Source of the DNA: Planctomycetota bacterium
GTDB lineage: Bacteria; Planctomycetota; Planctomycetia; Pirellulales; UBA1268
Assembly: GCA_031403195.1 (NCBI GenBank)
Contig: JANNSZ010000061.1
Coordinates: 1,653 to 65,652 of the forward strand
Direction of reading: 5' to 3'
DNA length: 64,000 nt
A program made the translations under genes and the position numbers. The first letter of the stretch is position 1; each line of letters starts with the position of its first letter. Of this stretch, positions 38,345-51,978 are shown piece after piece. The notes beneath the pieces are model-generated. The model was not told the DNA's origin. It ran no database searches and saw only the letters and a program-made list of their open reading frames with translations.

Positions 38345-38457
38345 TGGGAAAAGCCATCCATGGCCTTTTCCCACGTGGCCAAACCTGGAAAAGCCGAGGT
38401 TTTCCAGGTTTGGCGACCGCCGCTTCCTGCGGCGGCAGACTTCATTCACAGCCTGCC
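38345..38457 (+). repeat. multi-hairpin 3-prime element, family A, copy A2
   Basis: Begins 7 nt after the stop at 38337. It has the same four-hairpin layout as A1. Hairpin 2 is changed compensatorily (GCCAAACCTGGAAAA-GCCGAGG-TTTTCCAGGTTTGGC). Confidence 0.85.
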
Positions 38458-40347: not shown

Positions 40348-40785
40348 TCAGGCTCGGCTCATGATGTAGGACTGCACCTGCACGAGTTCTGTCGCGCAGG
40401 TCGCAAAGCGGTGGGCATTGATATCGCTGATCGACACAAGGCCCAGGAGCGTTTCATCGGCGTCGACCACCGGCACATGGCGGATATGACGGCGGTGCAT
40501 CACATCGGCCACGTCCTCGATCGGCGTGTCGGGCCTGCAGCAGACGACATCGCAAGTCATCACCTCACCGATAGTCGTGGTCTCAGGCGAGCGGCCCTCG
40601 GCAACGATGCGGCGGAGGACATCCCGTTCCGTAAAGATACCCACGAGCCGGTCGGCGACAGTCACGACCAGCGAACCGATCAAGTGTTCGTTCATCAGCC
40701 ACGTCGCCTGACGCACGGTGGCAGTTGGCGCGATGGTAACCATGCGGCGCGGTTTCACGGCCAACAAATCAGAGACGTTGTCCAT
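40348..40785 (-). CDS. CBS-pair domain protein
   Basis: 145 aa with two CBS motifs (IGSLVVTVADRLVGIFTERDVLRRI and IRHVPVVDADETLLGLVSISDI). Confidence 0.88.
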   Translation of the reverse strand: MDNVSDLLAVKPRRMVTIAPTATVRQATWLMNEHLIGSLVVTVADRLVGIFTERDVLRRIVAEGRSPETTTIGEVMTCDVVCCRPDTPIEDVADVMHRRHIRHVPVVDADETLLGLVSISDINAHRFATCATELVQVQSYIMSRA

Positions 40786-41213
40786 TTCCAGGCCCTCCCC
40801 CGATGACGCTCACAGCATGTGAACAATGGCCCCATATGACTTCCTCATTATGGATCGCGCGGCATCCCACCGCAACTCGCCGGACGGTGCTGCGGCCCCA
40901 GAAAGGCAGTTTGCAGGCTATGACCCCGGGACACGACACAAGCGGCCCAGAAAAAACTTGGCCACCGAGGCCATGCCAAGATGACCCCCCCTGCTGGGGG
41001 ATCGCCAGCAGAGTCAACGCGTTTTCACTGATCGGACCCTTGAATGGCGGTTAAGTCGACGTAATCTATCTAAGTTATCAGGCGGCCGGTTGTTCGGTCG
41101 TCGCAGAGCGAGGTCTCTTCGACCGACCGACCGGCGTCAGGCGCGTGCGCAAGGCAAACCTGTCGGGTCCGTTCAGCGTTCAGTGTGTGTTCTCCCTACT
41201 TTTGGAGGTTAGC

Positions 41214-42518
41214 GTGGTTCGAAAGATTTTGGCTTGTTTGATGCCGGCTGTCGCCGTCGTCGCCATGTGCACGAGCACGTGGGCTGGCGACTGCGGTGGC
41301 TGCGAAGGTGGTTGTGGTGATGCCAGCGCATGCTGCGGCACCAAGACCGTGTACCAGAAGCAGATGGTCACCGAGATGAAGTCGGTCACCTGCACGGAGT
41401 ACACCACGGAGACCCGCGAGAAGACCGTCACGGTCATGAAGCGGGTTCCGAAGACGGAAGAGAAGACCCGGATGGTCACCGTCTGTGTCCCCGAGACGAA
41501 GACGAAGACCTGTAGCTACACGATCAACAAGAACGTCACGGAGACCAAGACGTGTGAGTACACGGTCCAGGTTCCGTACACCGAAGAGGTCGAGCAGACC
41601 TACACGGTGATGACCCCGGTCGCGGAGAAGAAGACCTGCACCTACACCGTCATGGTGCCGGTGAAGGAAGAGAAGACCTGCACCTACATGGTGAAGGTCC
41701 CTTACACCGAAGAGGTCGAGCAGAAGTACACCGTGATGGTGCCCTACACCGAAGAGGTGAAGGCCACTCGGAAGGTGATGAAGCGGGTTCCGAAGGAAAT
41801 CACCAAGACCGTGCAGGTCCGTGGTGGTCACTGGGAGACCCAGATGGTGGAAATGCCGTCGTGCGGCACCGACGCCTGTGGCTGCCCATGCCCGCCGAAG
41901 CAGTGCTGCAAGAAGGTCTGGGTTCCGACGTGTGAGACCAAGGAAGTCACCTGCATGACGTACGAGTGCGTCACCGAGGAAGTTCCTTGCAGCTACACGG
42001 TCACCAAGTGCAAGCCTGAAGAGCGGACCCGCAAGGTCTGTGTCTCCAAGTGCCGTGATGAAGAGCGGACCCGCACCTACACCGTCACCAAGTGCGTGCC
42101 GGAAGAGCGGACCCGTGAGTACACGGTCACGAAGTGCGTGCCAGAGCAGAAGACTCGCATGGTCAAGGTCACCAAGTGCAAGGCCGAGACTCGCACCCGC
42201 GAGTACACGGTCTGCAAGTGCGTGCCGGAGACGATGACCAAGGAAGTCTCGTACACCGTGATGGTGCCTACGCAGAAGGAAGAGAAGTACACCGTCACCA
42301 CCTGCGAGTGCGTGTCGGAAGAGAAGACCGTGTCCTACAAGGTCTGTGTTCCGGTCTCGGTCACGAAGGAAGTGCCGGTCACCAAGTGCGTCATGGTCGC
42401 CGTTGAGGTGCCATGTGGCGACTGCTGCGGCAACAACTGCTGCGGTGGTGATTGCTGCTGCGACTCGTGCGACTGCTGCGACTCGGGCTGCAAGAAGAAG
42501 CGCGGTTGCCGTCGCTAA
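41214..42518 (+). CDS. YTV-repeat, Cys-rich secreted protein (planctomycete envelope protein family)
   Basis: GTG 41214 lies 6 nt after GGAGG. Signal peptide VVRKILACLMPAVAVVAMCTSTWA. There are more than 15 degenerate repeats of the type (C/E)xYTVxxCVPExxTRE / YTVMVPYTEEVEQK. Three Cys clusters occur: CGGCEGGCGDASACCG at the N-terminus, CGTDACGCPCPPKQCC in the middle, and CGDCCGNNCCGGDCCCDSCDCCDSGC at the C-terminus. Confidence 0.85.
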   Translation: MVRKILACLMPAVAVVAMCTSTWAGDCGGCEGGCGDASACCGTKTVYQKQMVTEMKSVTCTEYTTETREKTVTVMKRVPKTEEKTRMVTVCVPETKTKTCSYTINKNVTETKTCEYTVQVPYTEEVEQTYTVMTPVAEKKTCTYTVMVPVKEEKTCTYMVKVPYTEEVEQKYTVMVPYTEEVKATRKVMKRVPKEITKTVQVRGGHWETQMVEMPSCGTDACGCPCPPKQCCKKVWVPTCETKEVTCMTYECVTEEVPCSYTVTKCKPEERTRKVCVSKCRDEERTRTYTVTKCVPEERTREYTVTKCVPEQKTRMVKVTKCKAETRTREYTVCKCVPETMTKEVSYTVMVPTQKEEKYTVTTCECVSEEKTVSYKVCVPVSVTKEVPVTKCVMVAVEVPCGDCCGNNCCGGDCCCDSCDCCDSGCKKKRGCRR

Positions 42519-42553
42519 GCACGACTGCTTCTGCTTCTAAAGCGTTGACAAAC

Positions 42554-42595
42554 GAAGGGCCGGGCGAGCAATCGCCCGGCCCTTCCTGTTTTCTC
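42554..42595 (+). terminator. Rho-independent terminator of the YTV gene
   Basis: GAAGGGCCGGGCGA-GCAA-TCGCCCGGCCCTTC (14-bp perfect stem) followed by CTGTTTTCTC, 36 nt after the stop. Confidence 0.8.
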
Positions 42596-42625
42596 AGGCA
42601 TTCGCGCCGAACGCTCGGGACTGCC

Positions 42626-42740
42626 TATGTCATGTCGCGGGACGTTCGCGGTGGCCATCGTGGCCACCGCTTCAATCGGAGAAAATCGAGCTTCGCCATC
42701 CAGGCTCCGCTCGATTATCTACGCCCGCTCCATGACATGA
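42626..42740 (-). repeat. structured interspersed element, family B, copy B2 (reverse orientation)
   Basis: The + strand reads TATGTCATGTCGCGGGACGTTCGCGGTGGCCATCGTGGCCACCGCTTCAATCGGAGAAAATCGAGCTTCGCCATCCAGGCTCCGCTCGATTATCTACGCCCGCTCCATGACATGA. This is the reverse complement of the family core, with its own complementary outer arms (CATGTCATG / CATGACATG). Confidence 0.8.
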
Positions 42741-42832
42741 GCAATCCCGAGCGGCCAACCGCGTTCGAGCCTTTGCGAGAGCGACAATGCCGTGCTATTC
42801 TGCGGACTCTCGCGCGAGACAAGGAAGCGCGC

Positions 42833-44503
42833 ATGTCTCTGAAAACCGCGTTCACGTCTGCTCGCCTATGCTTTCGGGGTCTCACGCTCACGCTGCTGGT
42901 GCTTGCGGTGATGCCGCTCTACGGCTACGCCGCGGCCGCACAGAACCGGAGCCCGAAGCTTTCATACCCTGACTCGGCGTTGGCGGAGATTGACGCCCGA
43001 GCCTTCGGCTCCACAGAGAGGTCGCAGGTCGAAGCCGCCGTGCTTCATGCCTCGGGCCCGCAGCAGTGTGCCCATCTTGTCGTGATGGCGCGATACGACC
43101 GCGTCTTGGAACGCAATCCGCTGAAGGCGATCGCTGCGACGGGGATGGTTCTCTGGACTCGTGAAGACCGTGCAGAGTGGATGCGGCGAAGCGCTGCCGC
43201 GATGGGACAGATGCGGAAATCACGAACCAAGGCCGACGGTCTCGCCCAACCGGTGCGAATCGAAGACTGTCCACACGTGGATGTTGAGGTCCTGGACGTC
43301 AGCACGGCGAACGTGGCAATCGAGTACGCACACTGCCTGGCCGAAGTGGGGCAAGTCAAGGAGGCTTTCGCGATCACGAACTTTATTGGATCGCGATTCA
43401 ACGGCGTCTTGCGGGCACGAGCCTCGGAGACGCTCGGTGATTTTGCGATGCTCAATCGTGACCACGCCGCTGCGCGAGACCGATACAGCTTCGCCGTGGA
43501 TGTGCTTGACGATCATGCTCGGTACCAGGAACGTCCGCTCGCCCCCGAAGAGGCATACCTTCGGACGCAACTCCTTGCGAAGTTGACACGCGTTCGGCAG
43601 TTGCTCGAGAGCGACACCTATGGCGAGGATTGGATCGCGTACCGTGACGCGGATCGGCTCCGCCTCAACGACAAGAACTACCTTCTTGCATACCATCGCT
43701 TCCAGCAGATTATCGAGATTCATCCGGGCACGGTGTTTGCAGGCGCGTCCGAGTGCTACTCGATTGACTGTCTTCTTTCGCTCGCCGACCCGGCCCATCA
43801 GCAGTCGGTGAGAAAATCACTGGATCAAGCCCGAGCGGCGTTGGCGCACGATCGGCAGGAGCTTCAGCGCGCCGTCAGTCGTTCACTGCCCGTCGCCACG
43901 GCAGACGCATTCGCGAGCGCGGCACGCGACAACGAAGCCTTGGTTCGGTCGCTCCAGCAGATTCCCGTTGGTTCGGCGGCAGTCATGGCGGCCGAGAAGC
44001 GGATCATACGACTGATGGCAGGCCCAGCCGGCGAGCTGTATGGAGGTGAGGCGATCGTCCGCATGGGACGACACGTGCTGGAAACTGCAAGAGACCCGAC
44101 GCGCGCCGAACCCATCTTCGTTCGTGCTGCCGAATGGTGCGAGGCTCGGCCGGAAGCCCCCGTTGTACCTCCTGGGTTCGAAGTCCCTGCGAAGTGCCAA
44201 GCCGCCAGTGCGCCACCTCGCGACGAACGAGTCACCGACGTATTCATGAACGTGACGCTCGTGGAGACGAAACCTGGGGCGATCGTGAACGCCGTTACGT
44301 GCCCGTGGTATGTGCGGCGATTGCACCGTGAGGCTCTGCTCAAAGGCGGCCTTGCTGCCTATGCGCTCGGCACGATTAACGATGCGAAACGACATTGGCA
44401 GGCGATCTACGCTATCGAGCCGTTCTATGCGGAAAGTGAGGCTGCCCGTCGCGGGTCGGTGGTGGCGCGACTCTTGTGGCATGCGGAGAATTCTCCGGGC
44501 TGA
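42833..44503 (+). CDS. secreted helical-repeat (TPR-like) protein, function unknown
   Basis: ATG 42833 is preceded by AAGGAAG. Signal peptide MSLKTAFTSARLCFRGLTLTLLVLAVMPLYGYAAAAQ. The body is long and alpha-helical. It is the first gene of a co-directional four-gene block. Confidence 0.6.
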   Translation: MSLKTAFTSARLCFRGLTLTLLVLAVMPLYGYAAAAQNRSPKLSYPDSALAEIDARAFGSTERSQVEAAVLHASGPQQCAHLVVMARYDRVLERNPLKAIAATGMVLWTREDRAEWMRRSAAAMGQMRKSRTKADGLAQPVRIEDCPHVDVEVLDVSTANVAIEYAHCLAEVGQVKEAFAITNFIGSRFNGVLRARASETLGDFAMLNRDHAAARDRYSFAVDVLDDHARYQERPLAPEEAYLRTQLLAKLTRVRQLLESDTYGEDWIAYRDADRLRLNDKNYLLAYHRFQQIIEIHPGTVFAGASECYSIDCLLSLADPAHQQSVRKSLDQARAALAHDRQELQRAVSRSLPVATADAFASAARDNEALVRSLQQIPVGSAAVMAAEKRIIRLMAGPAGELYGGEAIVRMGRHVLETARDPTRAEPIFVRAAEWCEARPEAPVVPPGFEVPAKCQAASAPPRDERVTDVFMNVTLVETKPGAIVNAVTCPWYVRRLHREALLKGGLAAYALGTINDAKRHWQAIYAIEPFYAESEAARRGSVVARLLWHAENSPG

Positions 44504-44524
44504 CTGTTCGCGCAGCCTGTCGAA

Positions 44525-45079
44525 ATGGCTTCGTTTGGAGACGAACGACTTCGGCTTGGTGTCCTGCTCGCCGATCTGTTCTACGTAAACGAAGATCCAA
44601 AGTCTGCCGAGACCGCGTATCGAGCCCTTCTGGCAGATCGTGAGCGGCCGCTGAACACGCCCCAGAAAGCATACGTCACGTTCGCCCTGATCCGCAGCGT
44701 CGACCTCCAGTTTAAGGACAAGGAGGTTGCCCCACTCGCAGAGACTTTCGTTCCTGCTTTTGGCATGACACCGACGATGCCGCGGTTTCTTCTCTGGCGA
44801 GCAAACCTAAGAACGTCCAACCTCACAAGGTCACGCCCCGGTATGCCCGAGTGGAAGTCTGGCATGGCGGACTATACCGAGCTTGTCCGCCGTTTCCCGA
44901 AGACCGAGGAGGCCGACTACGCCTGCTACTACATAGGCTGGTCGCTCTACGCCGCTGGTGAGTTCGACGCGGGCATCAAGGGCTTGGAAGCGTATCGCCG
45001 GCTGTATCCCGACGGAATCTGGAAGGAACCAGCGGAATACAACCTGGTGGCATGTCGAAAAAGGATTCCCCTTCAATGA
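44525..45079 (+). CDS. TPR-like protein (YbgF/BamD-like C-terminal repeat)
   Basis: ADYACYYIGWSLYAAGEFDAGIKGLEAYRRLYPDGIWKEPAEYNL is a typical TPR/YbgF-type repeat. It lies in the same reading frame as the previous gene, separated by a TGA and 7 sense codons. Confidence 0.55.
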   Translation: MASFGDERLRLGVLLADLFYVNEDPKSAETAYRALLADRERPLNTPQKAYVTFALIRSVDLQFKDKEVAPLAETFVPAFGMTPTMPRFLLWRANLRTSNLTRSRPGMPEWKSGMADYTELVRRFPKTEEADYACYYIGWSLYAAGEFDAGIKGLEAYRRLYPDGIWKEPAEYNLVACRKRIPLQ

Positions 45080-46339
45080 AACTTTGTGTGCTTACGACTC
45101 CAGGCCGTTCATTTATGGCCGCATCCGTTCTGCTCGCGATTTTCTTGGGTGGGGCATTGCCGTTGGTCGTGGGCGCCGATCCGCCGCAACAGCTCACCGA
45201 CAAGACCAATGTTGCGCCGGGAAGTCACCTCAAGCCTCAAGCGGAAGTGGGACGGGATGCTCGATTCGGCCCAGGGAGGTTTGCTCAAGTTGGATGTTTC
45301 CCCCACGGGCGGGCGATTCAAACCAGGCAGCGCTGAGGCAAGAAAAGGGGGGCCTGAAAAGTGGCTGACTACTGAGAACTCCGAGACGGCCGCAAAATTT
45401 CTCGGAACGGTCCCGCCAAACACGCCGGTCCAACAGTATCCGCCGAGTTTTTCAGGGCTCTTTTTGCCGGGCGGTGGCGGGGCCGGGAAAGGAAAACCCG
45501 AGCCGCCGAAACCTGATGACCGAACTTGGTCGGTGGCCTCGGCCTTTGACGTGGGTAACCATGTGCACGAAGCTTCCGGTGCGATCAAAAACGGAAACCC
45601 GACTGGGTCACACGAAATAAAGCCCGTCTATGACGGCGTGAAAGAATACGACGTCGATTGCCCGGTGCGAGCCGCCAATGGCGAAATCGTGCGGATGATC
45701 ACGTTGATCGACAGCGCCAAGGCGGCGTTGGTCGCGAAATACGGAGGGGACGGCAAGGAACAAGGCCTGTTTGTGCCAGGGGAGCCGGGTTTGGCTGCGG
45801 GGAAAGCGACAAACGTCAAGACCGGCCAGGCCGACCCCAAGCATGGTGACAACAATATGGTTCGCGCGAAAATCACCGGCACTTTTAAGAACGACGCCAA
45901 ATACTTCATTGCTATGCCGAAGTGGCTCCAGCTCACGGAGAAAGATCTGGACAAGCAACCTTCGCAGGAAACTCAAGAAAGGTGGAGTCTCAAATTCTAC
46001 CTACCACTCGAGAAGCATGAGGTACTCCACAAGGAAAAATATGAGGCGTACGTGAAGAACGTCCAAGCCGTCGTCGACACCCATCCGAAGACTTTGTATT
46101 TCGGTGAGGTTTGCTATGGGCCAGGGCGAACCGCGGAGGCGAAGGCGCGTGCGATACGCGTCGCTACAGAAGAATACGACCGAGAGAAGCAGGCGGTCCT
46201 TGACGAGGTTCAGACGCTAATGACCAAGTTACAAGAAGAGCAAGCCGAATATGACAGGATCACAAAGCACGGAGCAAACCAAAAGGCGATCGGAGGGCAG
46301 AATGTGGAGTACGAAGAAAATTGGCCGTTGCCACCATGA
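45076..46339 (+). CDS. secreted hypothetical protein with HExxH motif; apparent frame disruption near the 5-prime end
   Basis: ATG 45076 overlaps the upstream stop (ATGA) and encodes a good signal peptide (MKLCVLTTPGRSFMAASVLLAIFLGGALPLVVGA), but that frame stops at 45336. The 417-codon body is in the next frame (track ORF 45086..46339, first internal ATG at 45257). The body contains LEKHEVLHKEKYEAY. Confidence 0.5.
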
Positions 46340-46343
46340 GTCG

Positions 46344-47063
46344 ATGACGCCCGCGGCGCTCAACCGCACTTGCGCCCAGGCGGGCCTTGCGTGGCTCTTG
46401 CTCGCGGCTGCCACAGCCTTCACCGGTATGGAATCGGGGCAGGCTAGTGATGGACTTGCTCCCGAGCCACCAAAGCTGCTTCTGGGAAAGATTCGCGCGG
46501 AGCTATCGCTCGACGAAACTGAAGGCCGGCTGACGTACGCCGTCCGAAATGTGTCGAACGGCCCCGTGACGGTCCATGCCAGGACGCTCAAGTACGCCGA
46601 GGCTGCCTTTTGTATTGAGCCTGACGCTGAATCGGCGGCTATCGCAGACGAGGACTATGTGGACGTAGAGGAAGGATTCGTTTATGAGGTTGACGATGGT
46701 CTCGGGTGGGGCTCGAACCGGAAGGCGCCGCCCGACCGGGTGATTGATCTCATGCCAGGTGAATCCCTCTCGCGTTCAATGATCCTTCAGGACCTTCCGT
46801 GGTTTGAAAGGCTCGTGGCGCAATTGAAGAAGCGAAAGTTCAAGCAGTATCGTCTCGACCCTAGTGTGATTTTCTTCACGGCGGATGCCCACGGCAAACC
46901 CGTCATGGATCACACCGTTGAGGTGTGGAAATTTGAGCCCGACAAGGAAGGAAATCTTCGGAAAGTGCACTTCACTGGCGGAATCATGATGACGGTCCCG
47001 CAGGCGATGAAGCTCAAGGCCTTGGCTCGCCAAAAGGCCCCTGACTCAGTCACAAAGGATTGA
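46344..47063 (+). CDS. secreted hypothetical protein
   Basis: ATG 46344 lies 4 nt after the upstream stop and gives MTPAALNRTCAQAGLAWLLLAAATAFTG (signal-like). No family recognised. G+C is lowest in this block. Confidence 0.55.
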   Translation: MTPAALNRTCAQAGLAWLLLAAATAFTGMESGQASDGLAPEPPKLLLGKIRAELSLDETEGRLTYAVRNVSNGPVTVHARTLKYAEAAFCIEPDAESAAIADEDYVDVEEGFVYEVDDGLGWGSNRKAPPDRVIDLMPGESLSRSMILQDLPWFERLVAQLKKRKFKQYRLDPSVIFFTADAHGKPVMDHTVEVWKFEPDKEGNLRKVHFTGGIMMTVPQAMKLKALARQKAPDSVTKD

Positions 47064-47137
47064 GCGAGCGAGCTCGTTGAACTCGCGCTCAAAAACCGTT
47101 CATCCAAGTAGGTCCAACGGTAGACTCGCAATGCCCT

Positions 47138-47267
47138 GGGTGACTCGTGTCACGGAGCCGGCGTTGGAGGCTGAGCGCAGCCAGGATGGCGAAGCGAAGG
47201 CTACACCGAGTGAAGCGGCGGGCACGATGCCCGCCGCGAACGTCCGGCGAAGTGACACGCGTCACCC
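47138..47267 (+). repeat. structured interspersed element, family B, copy B3
   Basis: GGGTGACTCGTGTCACGGAGCCGGCG...GCGCAGCCAGGATGGCGAAGCG...GCGGCGGGC-ACGAT-GCCCGCCGC-GAACGTCCGGCGAAGTGACACGCGTCACCC. It lies between convergent genes. Confidence 0.85.
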
Positions 47268-47314
47268 AGGGCTACCAGCCGGCGTCGCGCATGTGCCCTG
47301 CGAGGAGGCCGCGA

Positions 47315-48454
47315 TTACCACTGACGCTCCAGCCCCAAGCTCGCACCGAACAAGAACATGCTGCCGGCGCCGTTGATGCCCGTGCCGCTCAAGGTGGTGT
47401 CGGTGAAATCGAACTGATTCGGGGCGAGGGCCAGGCCACTCAGCCAGGCCAGGTTGTAGCCCGCACGGAGTGACCAGTGTTCACCGAGGGACCGCACGGC
47501 CGTGATGTTCATGCTCGAGAGGAAGCCCGTGTTTGTCGTCGTGGCCTCGCGGCCTGGCCGGTACTCGAAATCCGGGACAAAACCGGTCGTGATCGGGCTT
47601 GTGGACTGGTGCATCCACGAGCCGCCGAGACCGACCTTCCAAAAACCTTCGAGCGCCCAGGATTGCCACTGCCGACGGCCGCGCACGCCTGTTTGCACGC
47701 CACAGAGGTTCGAGCTTGCGGCCACACGGTAGGCAGTCGTCGGCACGCTCGGGTCGGTCGTGATCCGCATGAAAGCGGTCTCATCCACACCTGCCCAGAA
47801 AACGCCACCGATCCAGTCGATTGTCGTGGTGCGATGCACCTTGTGACACGGGTCTCGCGGATTGCAGGTCGTGGTGGACCAGCCTTCGGCCAGAAAGAAG
47901 TTTAGCTCCGCAACATTCACCGCGGACGTGTACCCTGTCTGAATCGCGTCGGCGGTCTGCCATCCGGGCACGGCCAAGCCCAGGTCACCGGGCACGGCCA
48001 GGCCATCAGCAAAGTCGGCACGGTTGACGGCGTCCATGGCATAGAGGCCCCAGTAACCCACCTCCCAGCCGTCCCCTTCACAGTCTCGACGAGTGTGAAA
48101 GAGCCGCATGCCGGGTGTCGTTTCAAACACCATGCCGCGTGTCGTGAGCACCGTGCTGCCGGGGTTGGGTCCGAGCGGGCCAGTCAGAACCAGCGATTGG
48201 TCGTTGGTGCCGTTGTCGCGTTCCCAGAAGAGCAGGTCGAAGGTGGTCTGGGATGTCCAAGCGGGCCGCGTGGCACGACTCGACGCAATTCTCGTGGATG
48301 GGATGTACACATCGGATGGCTCCTCGAGCCACTCCTCCTCGCCGATGACAATAGGCTCGGGCTCCGGAGGGAGTTGCACCTCGGCGGCGTCCTCGGCCAA
48401 GCCCGTGGCCGAAAGACACACCAGCATCGCTGCCCACATGAGCCGACCCGTCAT
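47315..48454 (-). CDS. BBP7-family putative outer-membrane beta-barrel protein
   Basis: Signal peptide MTGRLMWAAMLVCLSATGLA, alternating beta-strand-like segments rich in G/W/Y, and a C-terminal ...FLFGASLGLERQW. This resembles the planctomycete BBP7 porin-like family. Confidence 0.7.
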   Translation of the reverse strand: MTGRLMWAAMLVCLSATGLAEDAAEVQLPPEPEPIVIGEEEWLEEPSDVYIPSTRIASSRATRPAWTSQTTFDLLFWERDNGTNDQSLVLTGPLGPNPGSTVLTTRGMVFETTPGMRLFHTRRDCEGDGWEVGYWGLYAMDAVNRADFADGLAVPGDLGLAVPGWQTADAIQTGYTSAVNVAELNFFLAEGWSTTTCNPRDPCHKVHRTTTIDWIGGVFWAGVDETAFMRITTDPSVPTTAYRVAASSNLCGVQTGVRGRRQWQSWALEGFWKVGLGGSWMHQSTSPITTGFVPDFEYRPGREATTTNTGFLSSMNITAVRSLGEHWSLRAGYNLAWLSGLALAPNQFDFTDTTLSGTGINGAGSMFLFGASLGLERQW

Positions 48455-51854: not shown

Positions 51855-51978
51855 GACAGACTGTGGCCGGTCGCCTGATACAGTCTGCGCCGCACGATGC
51901 GGCGGTCGCTGACCATGACAAACCCCGGGTTTGTCATGGTCAGCCGAGTGGCCAAAGACAGGGATCGCGGAGGGCCAC
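51855..51978 (-). repeat. multi-hairpin 3-prime element, family A, copy A4 (divergent variant)
   Basis: The reverse complement starts 3 nt after the stop at 51982. Hairpin 2 is GCTGACCATGACAAAC-CCGGG-GTTTGTCATGGTCAGC, hairpin 3 is CGCCGCATCGTGCGGCG (identical to A1), and hairpin 4 is CAGACTGT-N15-ACAGTCTG. Confidence 0.75.

What the first reader, a model, noticed from the sequence alone, without database searches (positions are those of the whole stretch)
41214..42518. YTV-repeat protein with three metallothionein-like cysteine clusters and strong expression signals
The 434-aa secreted protein is built almost entirely of degenerate 13-16-aa YTV-type repeats (..CxYTVxxCVPExxTRE.., YTVMVPYTEEVEQK). 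These are bracketed by Cys clusters: CGGCEGGCGDASACCG, CGCPCPPKQCC and CGDCCGNNCCGGDCCCDSCDCCDSGC-KKKRGCRR.

It follows a 430-nt lower-GC spacer, has GGAGG 6 nt before a GTG start and uses a narrow codon set. It ends with the only textbook intrinsic terminator I saw in the window.

YTV-domain proteins are known from Rhodopirellula as Cys/Pro-rich candidate cell-wall proteins, but their function is unresolved. The poly-Cys termini suggest disulfide cross-linking of an envelope lattice or metal binding.
Basis: partly seen in the sequence, partly recalled or inferred. Interest (0 to 1): 0.55.

Follow-up and report, generated by a model that had tools for sequence, protein, structure and literature searches.

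The report
Planctomycete YTV wall protein: giant β-hairpin
This gene encodes an ordinary but very cysteine-rich member of the known planctomycete YTV cell-wall protein family, and comparing about 170 relatives suggests the family folds into one very long two-stranded β-hairpin rod with cysteine-rich cross-linking knots at both ends.

Summary
Window 41214-42518 (+) encodes a 434-aa protein with a signal-peptide-like N-terminus. It is built of 14-aa YTV repeats (Pfam PF07639, 77 bits against a cut-off of 21) and carries the three quoted Cys clusters. It also has a conserved GGAGG-GTG start, the strongest codon bias of 14 genes tested, and the only stem-plus-T-tract terminator in the 64 kb.

It is a new member of a known family. 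YTV proteins are reported as major SDS-resistant wall proteins of Planctomycetia, and one is essential in Planctopirus. The three-cluster layout is shared across the family; this copy is only at the Cys-rich extreme.

The new result concerns the two repeat blocks either side of the central Cys hinge. They have the same length (±1 residue) in 162 of 173 relatives, across 12 length classes from 99 to 241 residues. Covariation between the blocks peaks at a single antiparallel register. Two independent AlphaFold models give the same roughly 170-residue β-hairpin, with the near-invariant Trp207 and Trp236 facing each other.

Most likely the protein is a rod of about 55 nm. The N- and C-terminal Cys clusters meet at one end and the hinge cluster sits at the other, and disulfides link rods into a protein wall. 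A metallothionein role is unsupported.

The parts
41040..41067 (+). Candidate sigma-70-type promoter: TTGAAT (41040-41045), a 16-nt spacer, then TAATCT (41062-41067).
   Evidence: Both hexamers and their spacing are conserved in 8 orthologous loci, whereas the distal half of the spacer is not. The tool's promoter scan did not flag it, because the -10 element matches only 3 of 6. This is inference; no TSS data are available.
41068..41213 (+). Conserved leader (putative 5' UTR of about 140 nt). It contains a 9-bp hairpin GGCGGCCGG/TCGGTCGTC at about 41081-41102, a pyrimidine tract and the Shine-Dalgarno GGAGG at 41204-41208.
   Evidence: The alignment of 14 orthologous leaders is near-invariant, with two linked G-U/G-C swaps in the hairpin. 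TGGAGGTxxGC-GTG (TGGAGGTTxGC in nine of ten) is conserved in all 10 orthologs examined. No Rfam family matches.
41214..41285 (+). GTG start and predicted Sec signal peptide (aa 1-24, MVRKILACLMPAVAVVAMCTSTWA, with cleavage after TWA).
   Evidence: By inspection there is a basic n-region, a 14-residue hydrophobic core and small residues at -3/-1. An equivalent N-terminus is present across alignment A1 and in the orthologs. No signal-peptide predictor was available.
41292..41339 (+). N-terminal Cys cluster CGGCEGGCGDASACCG (aa 27-42, 5 Cys).
   Evidence: It is disordered in the AF2 model, with pLDDT below 50. Its length and Cys count vary among orthologs.
41340..41855 (+). Arm 1: YTV repeat block 1 (aa 43-214), modelled as one continuous β-strand.
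   Evidence: AF2 DSSP assigns strand to 43-214. The 14-aa period is shown. Its length matches arm 2 across the family.
41826..41927 (+). Hinge (aa 205-238): the GHW...VWVP clasp around the central Cys loop SCGTDACGCPCPPKQCC. G205 pairs with P238 and W207 with W236.
   Evidence: G205 is invariant, and W207, C224, W236, V237 and P238 are at least 90% conserved. The loop is aa 215-228 in the model. W207-W236 and G205-P238 are cross-strand partners at i+j = 443.
41898..42413 (+). Arm 2: YTV repeat block 2 (aa 229-400), the second long β-strand, antiparallel to arm 1. It carries a Cys in nearly every repeat (YTVTKCVPEERTR).
42414..42518 (+). C-terminal Cys tail CGDCCGNNCCGGDCCCDSCDCCDSGCKKKRGCRR (aa 401-434, 13 Cys) and the stop codon.
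   Evidence: The tail Cys count is at the 97th percentile of the family. The basic-Cys end (K/R)(K/R)RGCRR is conserved in orthologs while the rest varies.
42554..42595 (+). Intrinsic terminator: 14-bp stem, 4-nt loop and a T-rich tail.

Best explanation
The gene encodes an abundant, secreted structural envelope protein of a Pirellulales planctomycete, a member of the YTV cell-wall protein family.

Proposed mechanism:
- After Sec export, the two repeat blocks (aa 43-214 and 229-400) zip together residue by residue into a single two-stranded antiparallel β-ribbon. At about 172 residues per strand this is roughly 55 nm long.
- The register is set by a conserved Gly-His-Trp / Val-Trp-Val-Pro clasp in which Trp207 faces Trp236.
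- This geometry puts the central Cys loop at the closed tip. It brings the N- and C-terminal Cys clusters together at the open end, so each molecule is a rod with two Cys-rich knots. A row of exposed Cys also runs along arm 2.
- Disulfide bonds formed in the periplasm close the open end and link rods to each other, giving the SDS-resistant protein wall.

Shown here: family membership, the three-cluster layout, the matched-arm rule, the covariation register and the conserved expression signals.

Inferred: that pairing is intramolecular, the rod dimensions, the disulfide cross-linking and the wall location of this particular protein.
For: Family. Pfam YTV scores 77 bits. There are 210 homologs, nearly all PF07639, and 1771 cluster representatives at E <= 1e-3. 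Orthologs at 84-88% identity lie in Pirellulales MAGs with conserved synteny.

Literature. YTV proteins are described as major constituents of walls that survive boiling in 10% SDS in Gemmata (PMC5287468). They are top-scoring in Tuwongella wall preparations and found only in the SDS fraction (PMC8567305). One is essential in P. limnophila (PMC10632474).

High expression. ENC is 33.1, the lowest of 14 genes. The SD and GTG are conserved, as is the terminator.

Hairpin.
- Two AF2 models, of this protein and of a relative with 29% identity and different length, give the same topology. Arm pLDDT is 76-87 in the first and 88-94 in the second.
- Arm 1 minus arm 2 is +1 or -1 (one case 0) in 162 of 173 proteins, and three more differ by 3, across 12 length classes. 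In the independent set of new 50%-identity representatives, 77 of 81 fall within one residue. Permutation gives 0.23 against the observed 0.94. A rough tree implies at least 47 length changes. Nearest relatives of different class differ by the same 14, 28, 42, 56 or 70 residues in both arms.
- APC-corrected mutual information between the arms peaks at one offset, d1-d2 = +4 (z 4.4-4.7), with shoulders at +2 and +6. This is the register of both AF2 models. Of the top 25 cross-arm pairs, 24 lie on these diagonals along the whole arm.
- At that register W207 pairs with W236 and G205 with P238. All 18 Pro fall in one pair class, and like-charge cross-strand pairs number 0, the minimum of 21 registers tested.
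- Insertions relative to longer orthologs are equal in both arms and sit at mirror positions (+42 at 89 and +42 at 90 residues from the hinge).

Linkers. The N region, hinge linker and C tail vary freely (3-435, 3-142 and 1-172 aa) while the arms stay matched.
Against: - There is no experimental structure. Foldseek finds nothing meaningful (TM <= 0.13) beyond generic long β-hairpin stems.
- AF2 uses the same kind of covariation, so the models and my MI test are not fully independent. pTM is low (0.25-0.29), as expected for rods.
- Covariation and equal arms cannot separate an intramolecular hairpin from an arm-swapped dimer or polymer.
- Eight proteins break the rule. They include two independent orthologous MAG loci with 171/212 arms.
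- No Cys-Cys cross-strand pair exists at the model register, so the arm cysteines must act between molecules or stay free.
- Disulfide chemistry, localisation and abundance of this protein are not tested.
- I could not read Hieu 2008 or Mahajan 2020, so I cannot exclude that some of this has been described.
Confidence: 0.6

Rival explanations
1. The arms pair between molecules rather than within one. Arm 1 of one chain zips to arm 2 of the next, giving domain-swapped dimers or head-to-tail β-ribbon polymers that form filaments, with the Cys clusters as staples.
For: Equal arm length and the antiparallel covariation register are satisfied equally well by an arm swap. The hinge linkers can be very long, up to 142 aa, which would permit opening.
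Against: Many family members have hinge linkers of only 3-17 residues. The conserved Trp-Trp and Gly-Pro clasp sits immediately beside the loop. Together these are what a tight intramolecular turn needs. Both AF2 monomer models close on themselves with high confidence.
Confidence: 0.12
2. The long hairpins assemble side by side into a closed β-barrel tube or a wide sheet, as in the stems of pore-forming toxins. This would form a pore, fibre or appendage rather than a cross-linked mesh.
For: The only structural neighbours found are long β-hairpins that exist as oligomeric barrels: phi29 gp9 knob, lysenin, aerolysin and anthrax PA pores. One face of the ribbon is 35% Val and 9% Tyr and would prefer to be buried.
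Against: TM-scores are at most 0.13. All 18 prolines fall in a single pair class, the one whose backbone groups can point outward. That is an edge-blocking pattern which disfavours further lateral H-bonding (inference). The Val/Tyr face is interleaved with Lys/Glu/Arg and is not a membrane-like surface. At about 55 nm the arms are far longer than any membrane. Published fractionation places YTV proteins in the SDS-resistant wall, not in membrane fractions.
Confidence: 0.12
3. The Cys clusters are metal-binding (metallothionein-like or Fe-S-like), and the protein buffers or stores metals in the periplasm.
For: Very dense Cys runs with Gly/Asp/Ser spacers resemble metallothionein composition. 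One distant homolog carries an automatic 'ferredoxin' name in NCBI (P0088).
Against: No metallothionein or other Pfam family matches at E <= 10. The tail Cys count ranges from 6 to 13 and the spacing changes among close orthologs, while the arms are strictly conserved. Cluster lengths range over tens of residues in the family. About 80% of the protein is the repeat rod, which a metal buffer would not need. The protein is exported to an oxidising compartment (inference).
Confidence: 0.06
4. It is a non-covalent surface-layer or adhesin protein. The cysteines only stabilise the monomer, and the wall strength comes from peptidoglycan.
For: Peptidoglycan has been reported in several Planctomycetia (review PMC12673574). 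The N- and C-terminal clusters lie next to each other in the model and could simply lock the open end.
Against: There are far more cysteines (48) than are needed to lock a hairpin. About 20 sit along the arms with no cross-strand partner. YTV proteins resist boiling SDS in published wall preparations. A YTV gene is essential in P. limnophila whereas several peptidoglycan genes are not (and the abstract listed).
Confidence: 0.1

Closest known systems
YTV-domain cell-wall proteins of Planctomycetia (Pfam PF07639; Rhodopirellula baltica, Gemmata obscuriglobus GobsU_38067/28375/21360, Tuwongella immobilis)
   Same: Same family by profile score. It shares the signal peptide, the 14-aa YTV repeats, the GHW...VWVP hinge and the three Cys clusters. 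It also shares the taxonomic range, with orthologs in Pirellulales MAGs.
   Different: The best match in the 5.8-billion-cluster protein set is only 54% identical, and the best genome match is 88%. This copy is at the Cys-rich extreme, at the 93rd percentile of Cys% and the 97th for the tail. Localisation and abundance are not measured for this protein.
Chlamydial outer membrane complex cysteine-rich proteins (OmcA/OmcB with MOMP)
   Same: The proposed working principle is the same: secreted Cys-rich envelope proteins of a PVC-superphylum bacterium that are disulfide cross-linked into a detergent-resistant shell which supplements or replaces peptidoglycan. This comparison rests on my own knowledge.
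   Different: No sequence relationship was detected, since the Pfam scan returned only YTV. The architecture is different, a repeat-built β-hairpin rod rather than globular or β-barrel proteins.
Single-layer β-sheet and rod-like surface proteins (Borrelia OspA central sheet; Staphylococcus SasG/Aap G5-E repeats)
   Same: A Thr/Val/Lys/Glu/Tyr-rich composition without a conventional hydrophobic core. Both are extended β structures exposed to solvent on both faces (the comparison is from my own knowledge).
   Different: Those are three-stranded modules of tens of residues. Here a single hairpin of about 2 x 170 residues is predicted, with Cys knots at the ends. There is no fold match in the PDB.
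Stem hairpins of β-pore-forming toxins and the phage phi29 gp9 knob
   Same: These are the only Foldseek neighbours. They are unusually long two-stranded antiparallel hairpins with an alternating residue pattern.
   Different: TM-scores are at most 0.13 and identity is 5-15%. Those hairpins are about 10 nm long and exist only within oligomeric barrels. There are no Cys clusters and no repeat structure.
Metallothioneins
   Same: Short segments with more than 35% Cys separated by Gly, Asp and Ser.
   Different: No profile match. The Cys positions are not conserved among orthologs. The clusters are appendages of a 340-residue β rod on an exported protein.

Membership tests
YTV family (Pfam PF07639) | Profile HMM score above the curated gathering threshold | tested here: met
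   77.3 bits against a cut-off of 21, E = 8.9e-22, 7 repeat stretches.
YTV family (Pfam PF07639) | Family architecture: N-terminal Cys cluster, repeat block, GHW...C-rich...VWVP hinge, repeat block, C-terminal Cys tail | tested here: met
   The 45-sequence alignment A1 has G205 invariant and W207, C224, W236-V237-P238, C405 and C432 at least 90% conserved. The clusters are present in 149-162 of 165 relatives.
YTV family (Pfam PF07639) | N-terminal export signal | tested here: met
   By inspection only, because no predictor was available: MVRK, a 14-residue hydrophobic core and STWA before the first Cys cluster. The same layout occurs in orthologs and in A1.
YTV family (Pfam PF07639) | Restriction to class Planctomycetia | tested here: met
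   The closest loci are Pirellulales or Planctomycetota MAGs with shared synteny. Five record titles say 'Candidatus Kuenenia' but carry the same Pirellulales-type neighbourhood, so those titles are probably mis-binned.
YTV family (Pfam PF07639) | Major component of the SDS-resistant cell-wall fraction | not testable with these tools
   Known for homologs only. The strong codon bias, conserved SD and terminator are consistent with high expression.
Metallothionein | Match to a metallothionein profile | tested here: not met
   A Pfam scan at E <= 10 returns only YTV. NCBIfam returns nothing.
Metallothionein | Conserved number and spacing of metal-ligand cysteines | tested here: not met
   The tail has 6-13 Cys with different spacing and length among orthologs at 52-88% identity.
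Metallothionein | Stoichiometric metal binding | not testable with these tools
   This needs ICP-MS or a spectroscopic assay.
Rho-independent (intrinsic) terminator | G+C-rich stem-loop followed by a U tract just after the stop codon | tested here: met
   14-bp stem, 11 G-C pairs, 4-nt loop and a tail with 6 T in 10, starting 36 nt after the stop.
Rho-independent (intrinsic) terminator | Conservation of the structure with compensatory changes | tested here: met
   Nine orthologous loci have a 12-15-bp stem of different sequence at the same position; eight of them have enough sequence to show the T-rich tail (L015 ends at the stem).
β-pore-forming toxin stem / phage knob hairpin | Structural superposition with a meaningful TM-score | tested here: not met
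   The best Foldseek E-value is 7e-5 but TM is at most 0.13 and rmsd exceeds 16 Å. The resemblance is limited to 'a long β-hairpin'.

The most novel reading that the evidence does not exclude
YTV proteins may be a previously undescribed structural class. Each would be a single β-hairpin 100-240 residues per strand (about 35-80 nm), kept in register by a Trp-Trp clasp. Repeat gains and losses would be tolerated only when matched in both strands. Each rod would have two Cys-rich knots, one at the hairpin tip and one where the two termini meet, so disulfide-linked rods would form the planctomycete protein sacculus as a rods-and-nodes analogue of peptidoglycan. I found no description of this geometry in the searchable literature, but two key papers could not be read.
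Probability: 0.5. Interest if true: 0.75.

Novelty: new member of a known kind. Interest (0 to 1): 0.5.

Why it matters
What the detergent-resistant, cystine-rich protein wall of planctomycetes is made of, and how it holds together, has been debated since the 1980s. YTV proteins are the leading candidates, yet no structure or assembly model is available in the literature I could search.

The gene in this window is just one more family member. However, the matched-arm rule and the covariation register give a concrete model: rod length set by repeat number, and two cross-linking nodes per molecule. The model can be tested with standard methods such as EM of recombinant protein, matched versus unmatched repeat deletions, and disulfide mapping.

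It would also be an extreme natural example of a solvent-exposed two-stranded β-ribbon, which is of interest for protein design and biomaterials.

Tried and rejected
- NCBIfam scan: no family.
- PDB sequence search: no hit at E <= 1.
- Foldseek against the PDB with both models: only generic long-hairpin matches, TM <= 0.13.
- Rfam on 40700-42700 at E <= 1: only sub-threshold noise over the terminator.
- Alternative start GTG 41145 (457 aa): rejected, because the upstream in-frame peptide is not conserved while the SD plus GTG 41214 is.
- Lipoprotein reading of Cys19 (VVAM-C): rejected as unlikely. The -1 residue (Met or Leu) is non-canonical, and Cys19 is absent from the wider family's signal peptides (inference).
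- Recent tandem duplication as the source of the repeats: rejected, because the 42-nt units are only 63-76% identical.
- A second YTV gene in the window: none.
- Conserved operon partners: synteny (PDZ, a 352-aa ORF, a SnoaL-domain protein and a divergent CBS-pair gene) holds only among close orthologs. It is absent in distant YTV loci L016 and L018, so no functional partner is implied.
- RNAalifold pairing of ACGTAACCTATC with the SD and start codon: 11 pairs with no both-sided compensatory change (two vary only C/U against G), overlapping the candidate -10 box. Noted but not adopted.
- Intramolecular cross-strand disulfides: none at the model register. Cys-Cys coincidences occur only at registers 7 residues away (sums 436 and 450), which covariation does not support.
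- Reading Mahajan et al. 2020 (by DOI and PMC id) failed, as it is not held; Hieu et al. 2008 has no PMC id in the reference list and was not retrievable.
Full report
**1. Observation**

Window 41214-42518 (+) is an open reading frame with a GTG start that encodes 434 aa. GGAGG lies at 41204-41208, 5 nt upstream of the start. The product begins with a signal-peptide-like segment, MVRKILACLMPAVAVVAMCTSTWA.

Its composition is extreme: Thr 16.1%, Val 15.0%, and Lys, Cys and Glu 11.1% each, with no Phe.

The YT[VI] motif recurs with a strict 14-residue spacing. At the DNA level this is a 42-nt period with only 63-76% identity between units, so the repeats are old rather than recent.

Pfam YTV (PF07639) matches at 77.3 bits against a gathering cut-off of 21 (E = 8.9e-22, 7 stretches). 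No other Pfam family matches at E <= 10, and no NCBIfam family matches.

**2. Expression signals**

Codon use is the most biased of 14 ORFs tested in the window. ENC is 33.1, against 37.7-49.7 for the others. Lys is 48/48 AAG, Tyr 19/19 TAC and Gln 10/10 CAG. ACC and GTC are preferred where the other genes prefer ACG and GTG.

The hairpin at 42554-42585 has a 14-bp stem with 11 G-C pairs and the tail CTGTTTTCTC. It is the best terminator-like site in 36-48 kb. It is also the only perfect stem of at least 9 bp with at least 5 T in its tail in the whole 64 kb on either strand. In nine orthologous loci a 12-15-bp stem of different sequence sits at the same place, followed by a T-rich tail in the eight with enough downstream sequence (L015 ends at the stem), so the structure is conserved through compensatory change.

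The spacer to the divergent CBS-pair gene is 428 nt. Its GC of 0.596 is only at the 10th percentile of equal-sized windows. Only its proximal ~190 nt are conserved among orthologs. That part contains a TTGAAT-16 nt-TAATCT promoter-like pair, a conserved 9-bp hairpin, a pyrimidine tract and TGGAGGTxxGC-GTG (TGGAGGTTxGC in nine of ten orthologs), conserved in all ten. I read this as a promoter plus a structured leader of about 140 nt. There are no transcript data, and no Rfam family matches.

**3. Family and context**

A search of 5.8 billion protein clusters gave 210 hits at E <= 1e-5, almost all annotated PF07639. The best is only 54% identical. A profile search of 1.84 billion 50%-identity representatives found 1771 members at E <= 1e-3 and 359 at E <= 1e-30.

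A genome scan found 15 loci:
- Three are 84-88% identical, from Pirellulales MAGs.
- Some record titles say 'Candidatus Kuenenia'.

The upstream neighbourhood is conserved among these loci: a PDZ protein, a 352-aa ORF, a SnoaL-domain protein and the divergent CBS-pair gene. Distant YTV loci share none of it. The gene is therefore a stand-alone unit. It is the only YTV gene in the window.

In the literature held here:
- Cys-rich YTV proteins are reported as major constituents of walls that survive boiling in 10% SDS in Gemmata (PMC5287468).
- They were identified in Rhodopirellula wall preparations and are top-scoring in Tuwongella wall preparations, and they appear only in the SDS fraction (PMC8567305).
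- They are restricted to class Planctomycetia (PMC12673574).
- One is among the essential genes of Planctopirus limnophila (PMC10632474).

**4. The Cys clusters are a family trait**

In a 45-sequence alignment the layout is shared: signal peptide, N-terminal Cys cluster, repeat block 1, GHW...Cys-rich loop...VWVP, repeat block 2, Cys tail. G205 is invariant, and W207, C224, W236, V237, P238, C405 and C432 are at least 90% conserved.

Among 165 relatives, at least 2 Cys occur in the N region in 149, in the hinge in 162 and in the tail in 158. The window protein is at the 93rd percentile for Cys% and the 97th for tail Cys.

Among close orthologs the tail has 6-13 Cys, with varying spacing and length. 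The hinge sequence GTDACGCPCPPKQCCK(R/K)VWVP and the final (K/R)(K/R)RGCRR are well conserved. This drift argues against defined metal sites. It fits a role in which Cys number matters more than exact position.

**5. Structure**

AlphaFold2 with the 45-sequence alignment gave one continuous strand at 43-214, a loop at 215-228 and a second strand at 229-400. The terminal Cys clusters are disordered. Arm pLDDT is mostly 76-87. Two low-confidence dips, at 127-139 and 303-316, are mirror images (i+j = 443), so the model is a single giant antiparallel hairpin.

A second model was built for P0026, which has 313 aa, 29% identity, shorter arms and its own 24-sequence alignment. It gave the same topology with arm pLDDT of 88-94 (strands 42-160 and 181-299). 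Relative to sequence anchors, the register is identical in the two models.

Neither model has a meaningful PDB neighbour (TM <= 0.13). The top hits are the long β-hairpin stems of the phi29 knob and of the lysenin, aerolysin and anthrax PA pores. No PDB sequence matches.

**6. Independent tests of the hairpin**

(a) Matched arms. I cut four short anchor profiles from the alignment: the start of arm 1, the two sides of the hinge and the end of arm 2. I then measured both arms in every full-length relative.
- In the first set of 92 proteins, 88 had arms differing by no more than 3 residues. The difference was +1 in nearly all, over arm lengths from 99 to 241.
- With 81 further 50%-identity representatives from the independent profile search, the totals over 173 proteins are +1 in 146, -1 in 15, +3 in 3 and 0 in 1, with 8 outliers. 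Of the 81 new representatives, 77 are within one residue (68 at +1, 8 at -1, 1 at 0).
- Length classes differ mostly by multiples of 14, and always by even numbers.
- Shuffling arm 2 among proteins gives 23% matches (maximum 35% in 10,000 shuffles) against 94% observed.
- A rough tree needs at least 47 arm-length changes.
- In every nearest-relative pair of different class listed in that analysis, both arms differ by the same amount: 14, 28, 42, 56 or 70 residues.
- Meanwhile the N region (3-435 aa), the hinge linker (3-142 aa) and the C tail (1-172 aa) vary freely.

No mutational process adds equal numbers of repeats to two separate direct-repeat arrays. Selection for pairing is therefore the simplest cause (inference).

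(b) Mirror indels. Relative to the window protein, L005 has +42 aa at 89 residues from the hinge in arm 1 and +42 aa at 90 residues in arm 2. L006 has +42 at 39 and +42 at 35.

(c) Covariation. APC-corrected mutual information was computed between arm 1 and arm 2 columns indexed by distance from the hinge.
- It peaks at a single offset, +4 (z = 4.4 for 162 sequences, and z = 4.7 within the fixed-length 115/114 class of 55 sequences).
- There are shoulders at +2 and +6, and the profile is flat from -16 to +24.
- Of the top 25 cross-arm pairs, 24 lie on these diagonals, spread over the whole arm.
- Offset +4 is exactly the AF2 register.

(d) Sequence logic at that register.
- W207 faces W236, and G205 faces P238.
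- All 8 arm-1 prolines are at odd positions and all 10 arm-2 prolines at even positions. They therefore share one pair class, which can be the non-H-bonded one.
- One face is Val 35%, Lys 19%, Glu 14%, Tyr 9% and Arg 8%, with Val or Tyr opposite Lys, Glu or Arg. There are no like-charge pairs, the minimum of 21 registers tested.
- The other face is Thr 35%, Glu 13%, Pro 10%, Cys 9% and Met 8%. Arm-1 Pro sits opposite arm-2 Cys five times.
- No Cys-Cys cross-strand pair exists, so the roughly 20 arm cysteines are free to bond with other partners.

**7. Mechanism**

The best-supported reading is a secreted, abundant structural protein that folds into a two-stranded β-ribbon about 55 nm long (172 residues at about 0.33 nm each; inference). 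The hinge Cys loop sits at the closed tip. The N- and C-terminal Cys clusters lie side by side at the open end.

Disulfides would lock the open end and join rods through the two knots and the arm-2 Cys row. This would give the SDS-resistant protein wall described for the family. Repeat number would set strut length.

What is shown and what is inferred:
- Shown: family membership, the layout, the matched arms, the register and the conserved signals.
- Inferred: that the pairing is within one chain, the dimensions, the disulfide chemistry and the location of this particular protein.

Rivals are arm-swapped polymers, lateral assembly into barrels or sheets, metal binding, and a non-covalent surface layer. 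They are weighed in the rival list. Metal binding is the weakest.

**8. Caveats**

- AF2 and my covariation test draw on the same kind of signal, although they used different sequence sets and methods.
- Eight proteins break the arm rule. Among them are two independent MAG orthologs with 171/212 arms, which may reflect repeat collapse in assembly or a real bulge.
- Signal-peptide and promoter calls are by inspection only.
- Hieu 2008 and Mahajan 2020 could not be read. Searches for YTV with 'hairpin' or 'AlphaFold' found nothing relevant, but that is not proof of novelty.

**9. Verdict**

The exception is the metallothionein analogy, and the clusters are not special to this gene. The gene is a new member of a known family. 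The added value is a testable structural model for the whole family.

Noticed in passing
window 41025-41213: Only the ~190 nt of the 428-nt spacer nearest the start codon are conserved among orthologous loci. This part contains a promoter-like TTGAAT-16 nt-TAATCT, a conserved 9-bp hairpin at about 41081-41102 with two linked G-U/G-C swaps, and a pyrimidine tract before the SD. RNAalifold also pairs ACGTAACCTATC with the SD and start codon (11 pairs, no both-sided compensatory change). No Rfam family matches.
   Followed up: partly
window about 42700-47300: Three ORFs (42452-44503, 45086-46339, 46251-47063) lie between the YTV terminator and the gene at 47315-48454. None has a convincing Pfam hit. 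They are absent from the syntenic loci L001 and L003, where that gene follows YTV after about 450 nt. This is probably a lineage-specific insertion of about 4.6 kb.
   Followed up: partly
L004 3084-4565 and L015 6001-7470: Two independently assembled orthologs have 42 extra residues (three repeats) in arm 2 only, giving arms of 171 and 212. This breaks the otherwise near-universal matched-arm rule. It could be repeat collapse in short-read assembly or a real side bulge.
   Followed up: partly
window 51908-51944 and 38378-38414: Two long perfect palindromes without T tails: a 17-bp stem (GCTGACCATGACAAACC...GGTTTGTCATGGTCAGC) and a 15-bp stem (GCCAAACCTGGAAAA...TTTTCCAGGTTTGGC). Their function was not examined.
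   Followed up: no
L002, L003, L009, L013, L014 (record titles): Five loci are titled 'Candidatus Kuenenia' but carry YTV orthologs at 52-87% identity with the same neighbourhood as the Pirellulales MAGs. The literature says YTV is absent outside class Planctomycetia, so these bins are probably mislabelled.
   Followed up: partly
window 42492-42515 (aa 427-434) and ortholog C-termini: The extreme C-terminus (K/R)(K/R)RGCRR(CR) is conserved in all orthologs, and RRCRxC-like endings are common in the wider family, although the rest of the tail drifts. This may be a sorting or anchoring signal. Its role is unknown.
   Followed up: no
L016 7485-9071 and L018 7202-8377: In two distant YTV loci the adjacent gene is a Ser/Thr protein kinase, in different orientations. 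This may be chance, given how many such kinases planctomycetes have.
   Followed up: no
P0145, P0190, P0244 (homologs of 529, 831 and 850 aa): Some family members are much longer, with 5-6 separate profile stretches or very unequal arms (312/144). They may contain more than one hairpin unit.
   Followed up: no
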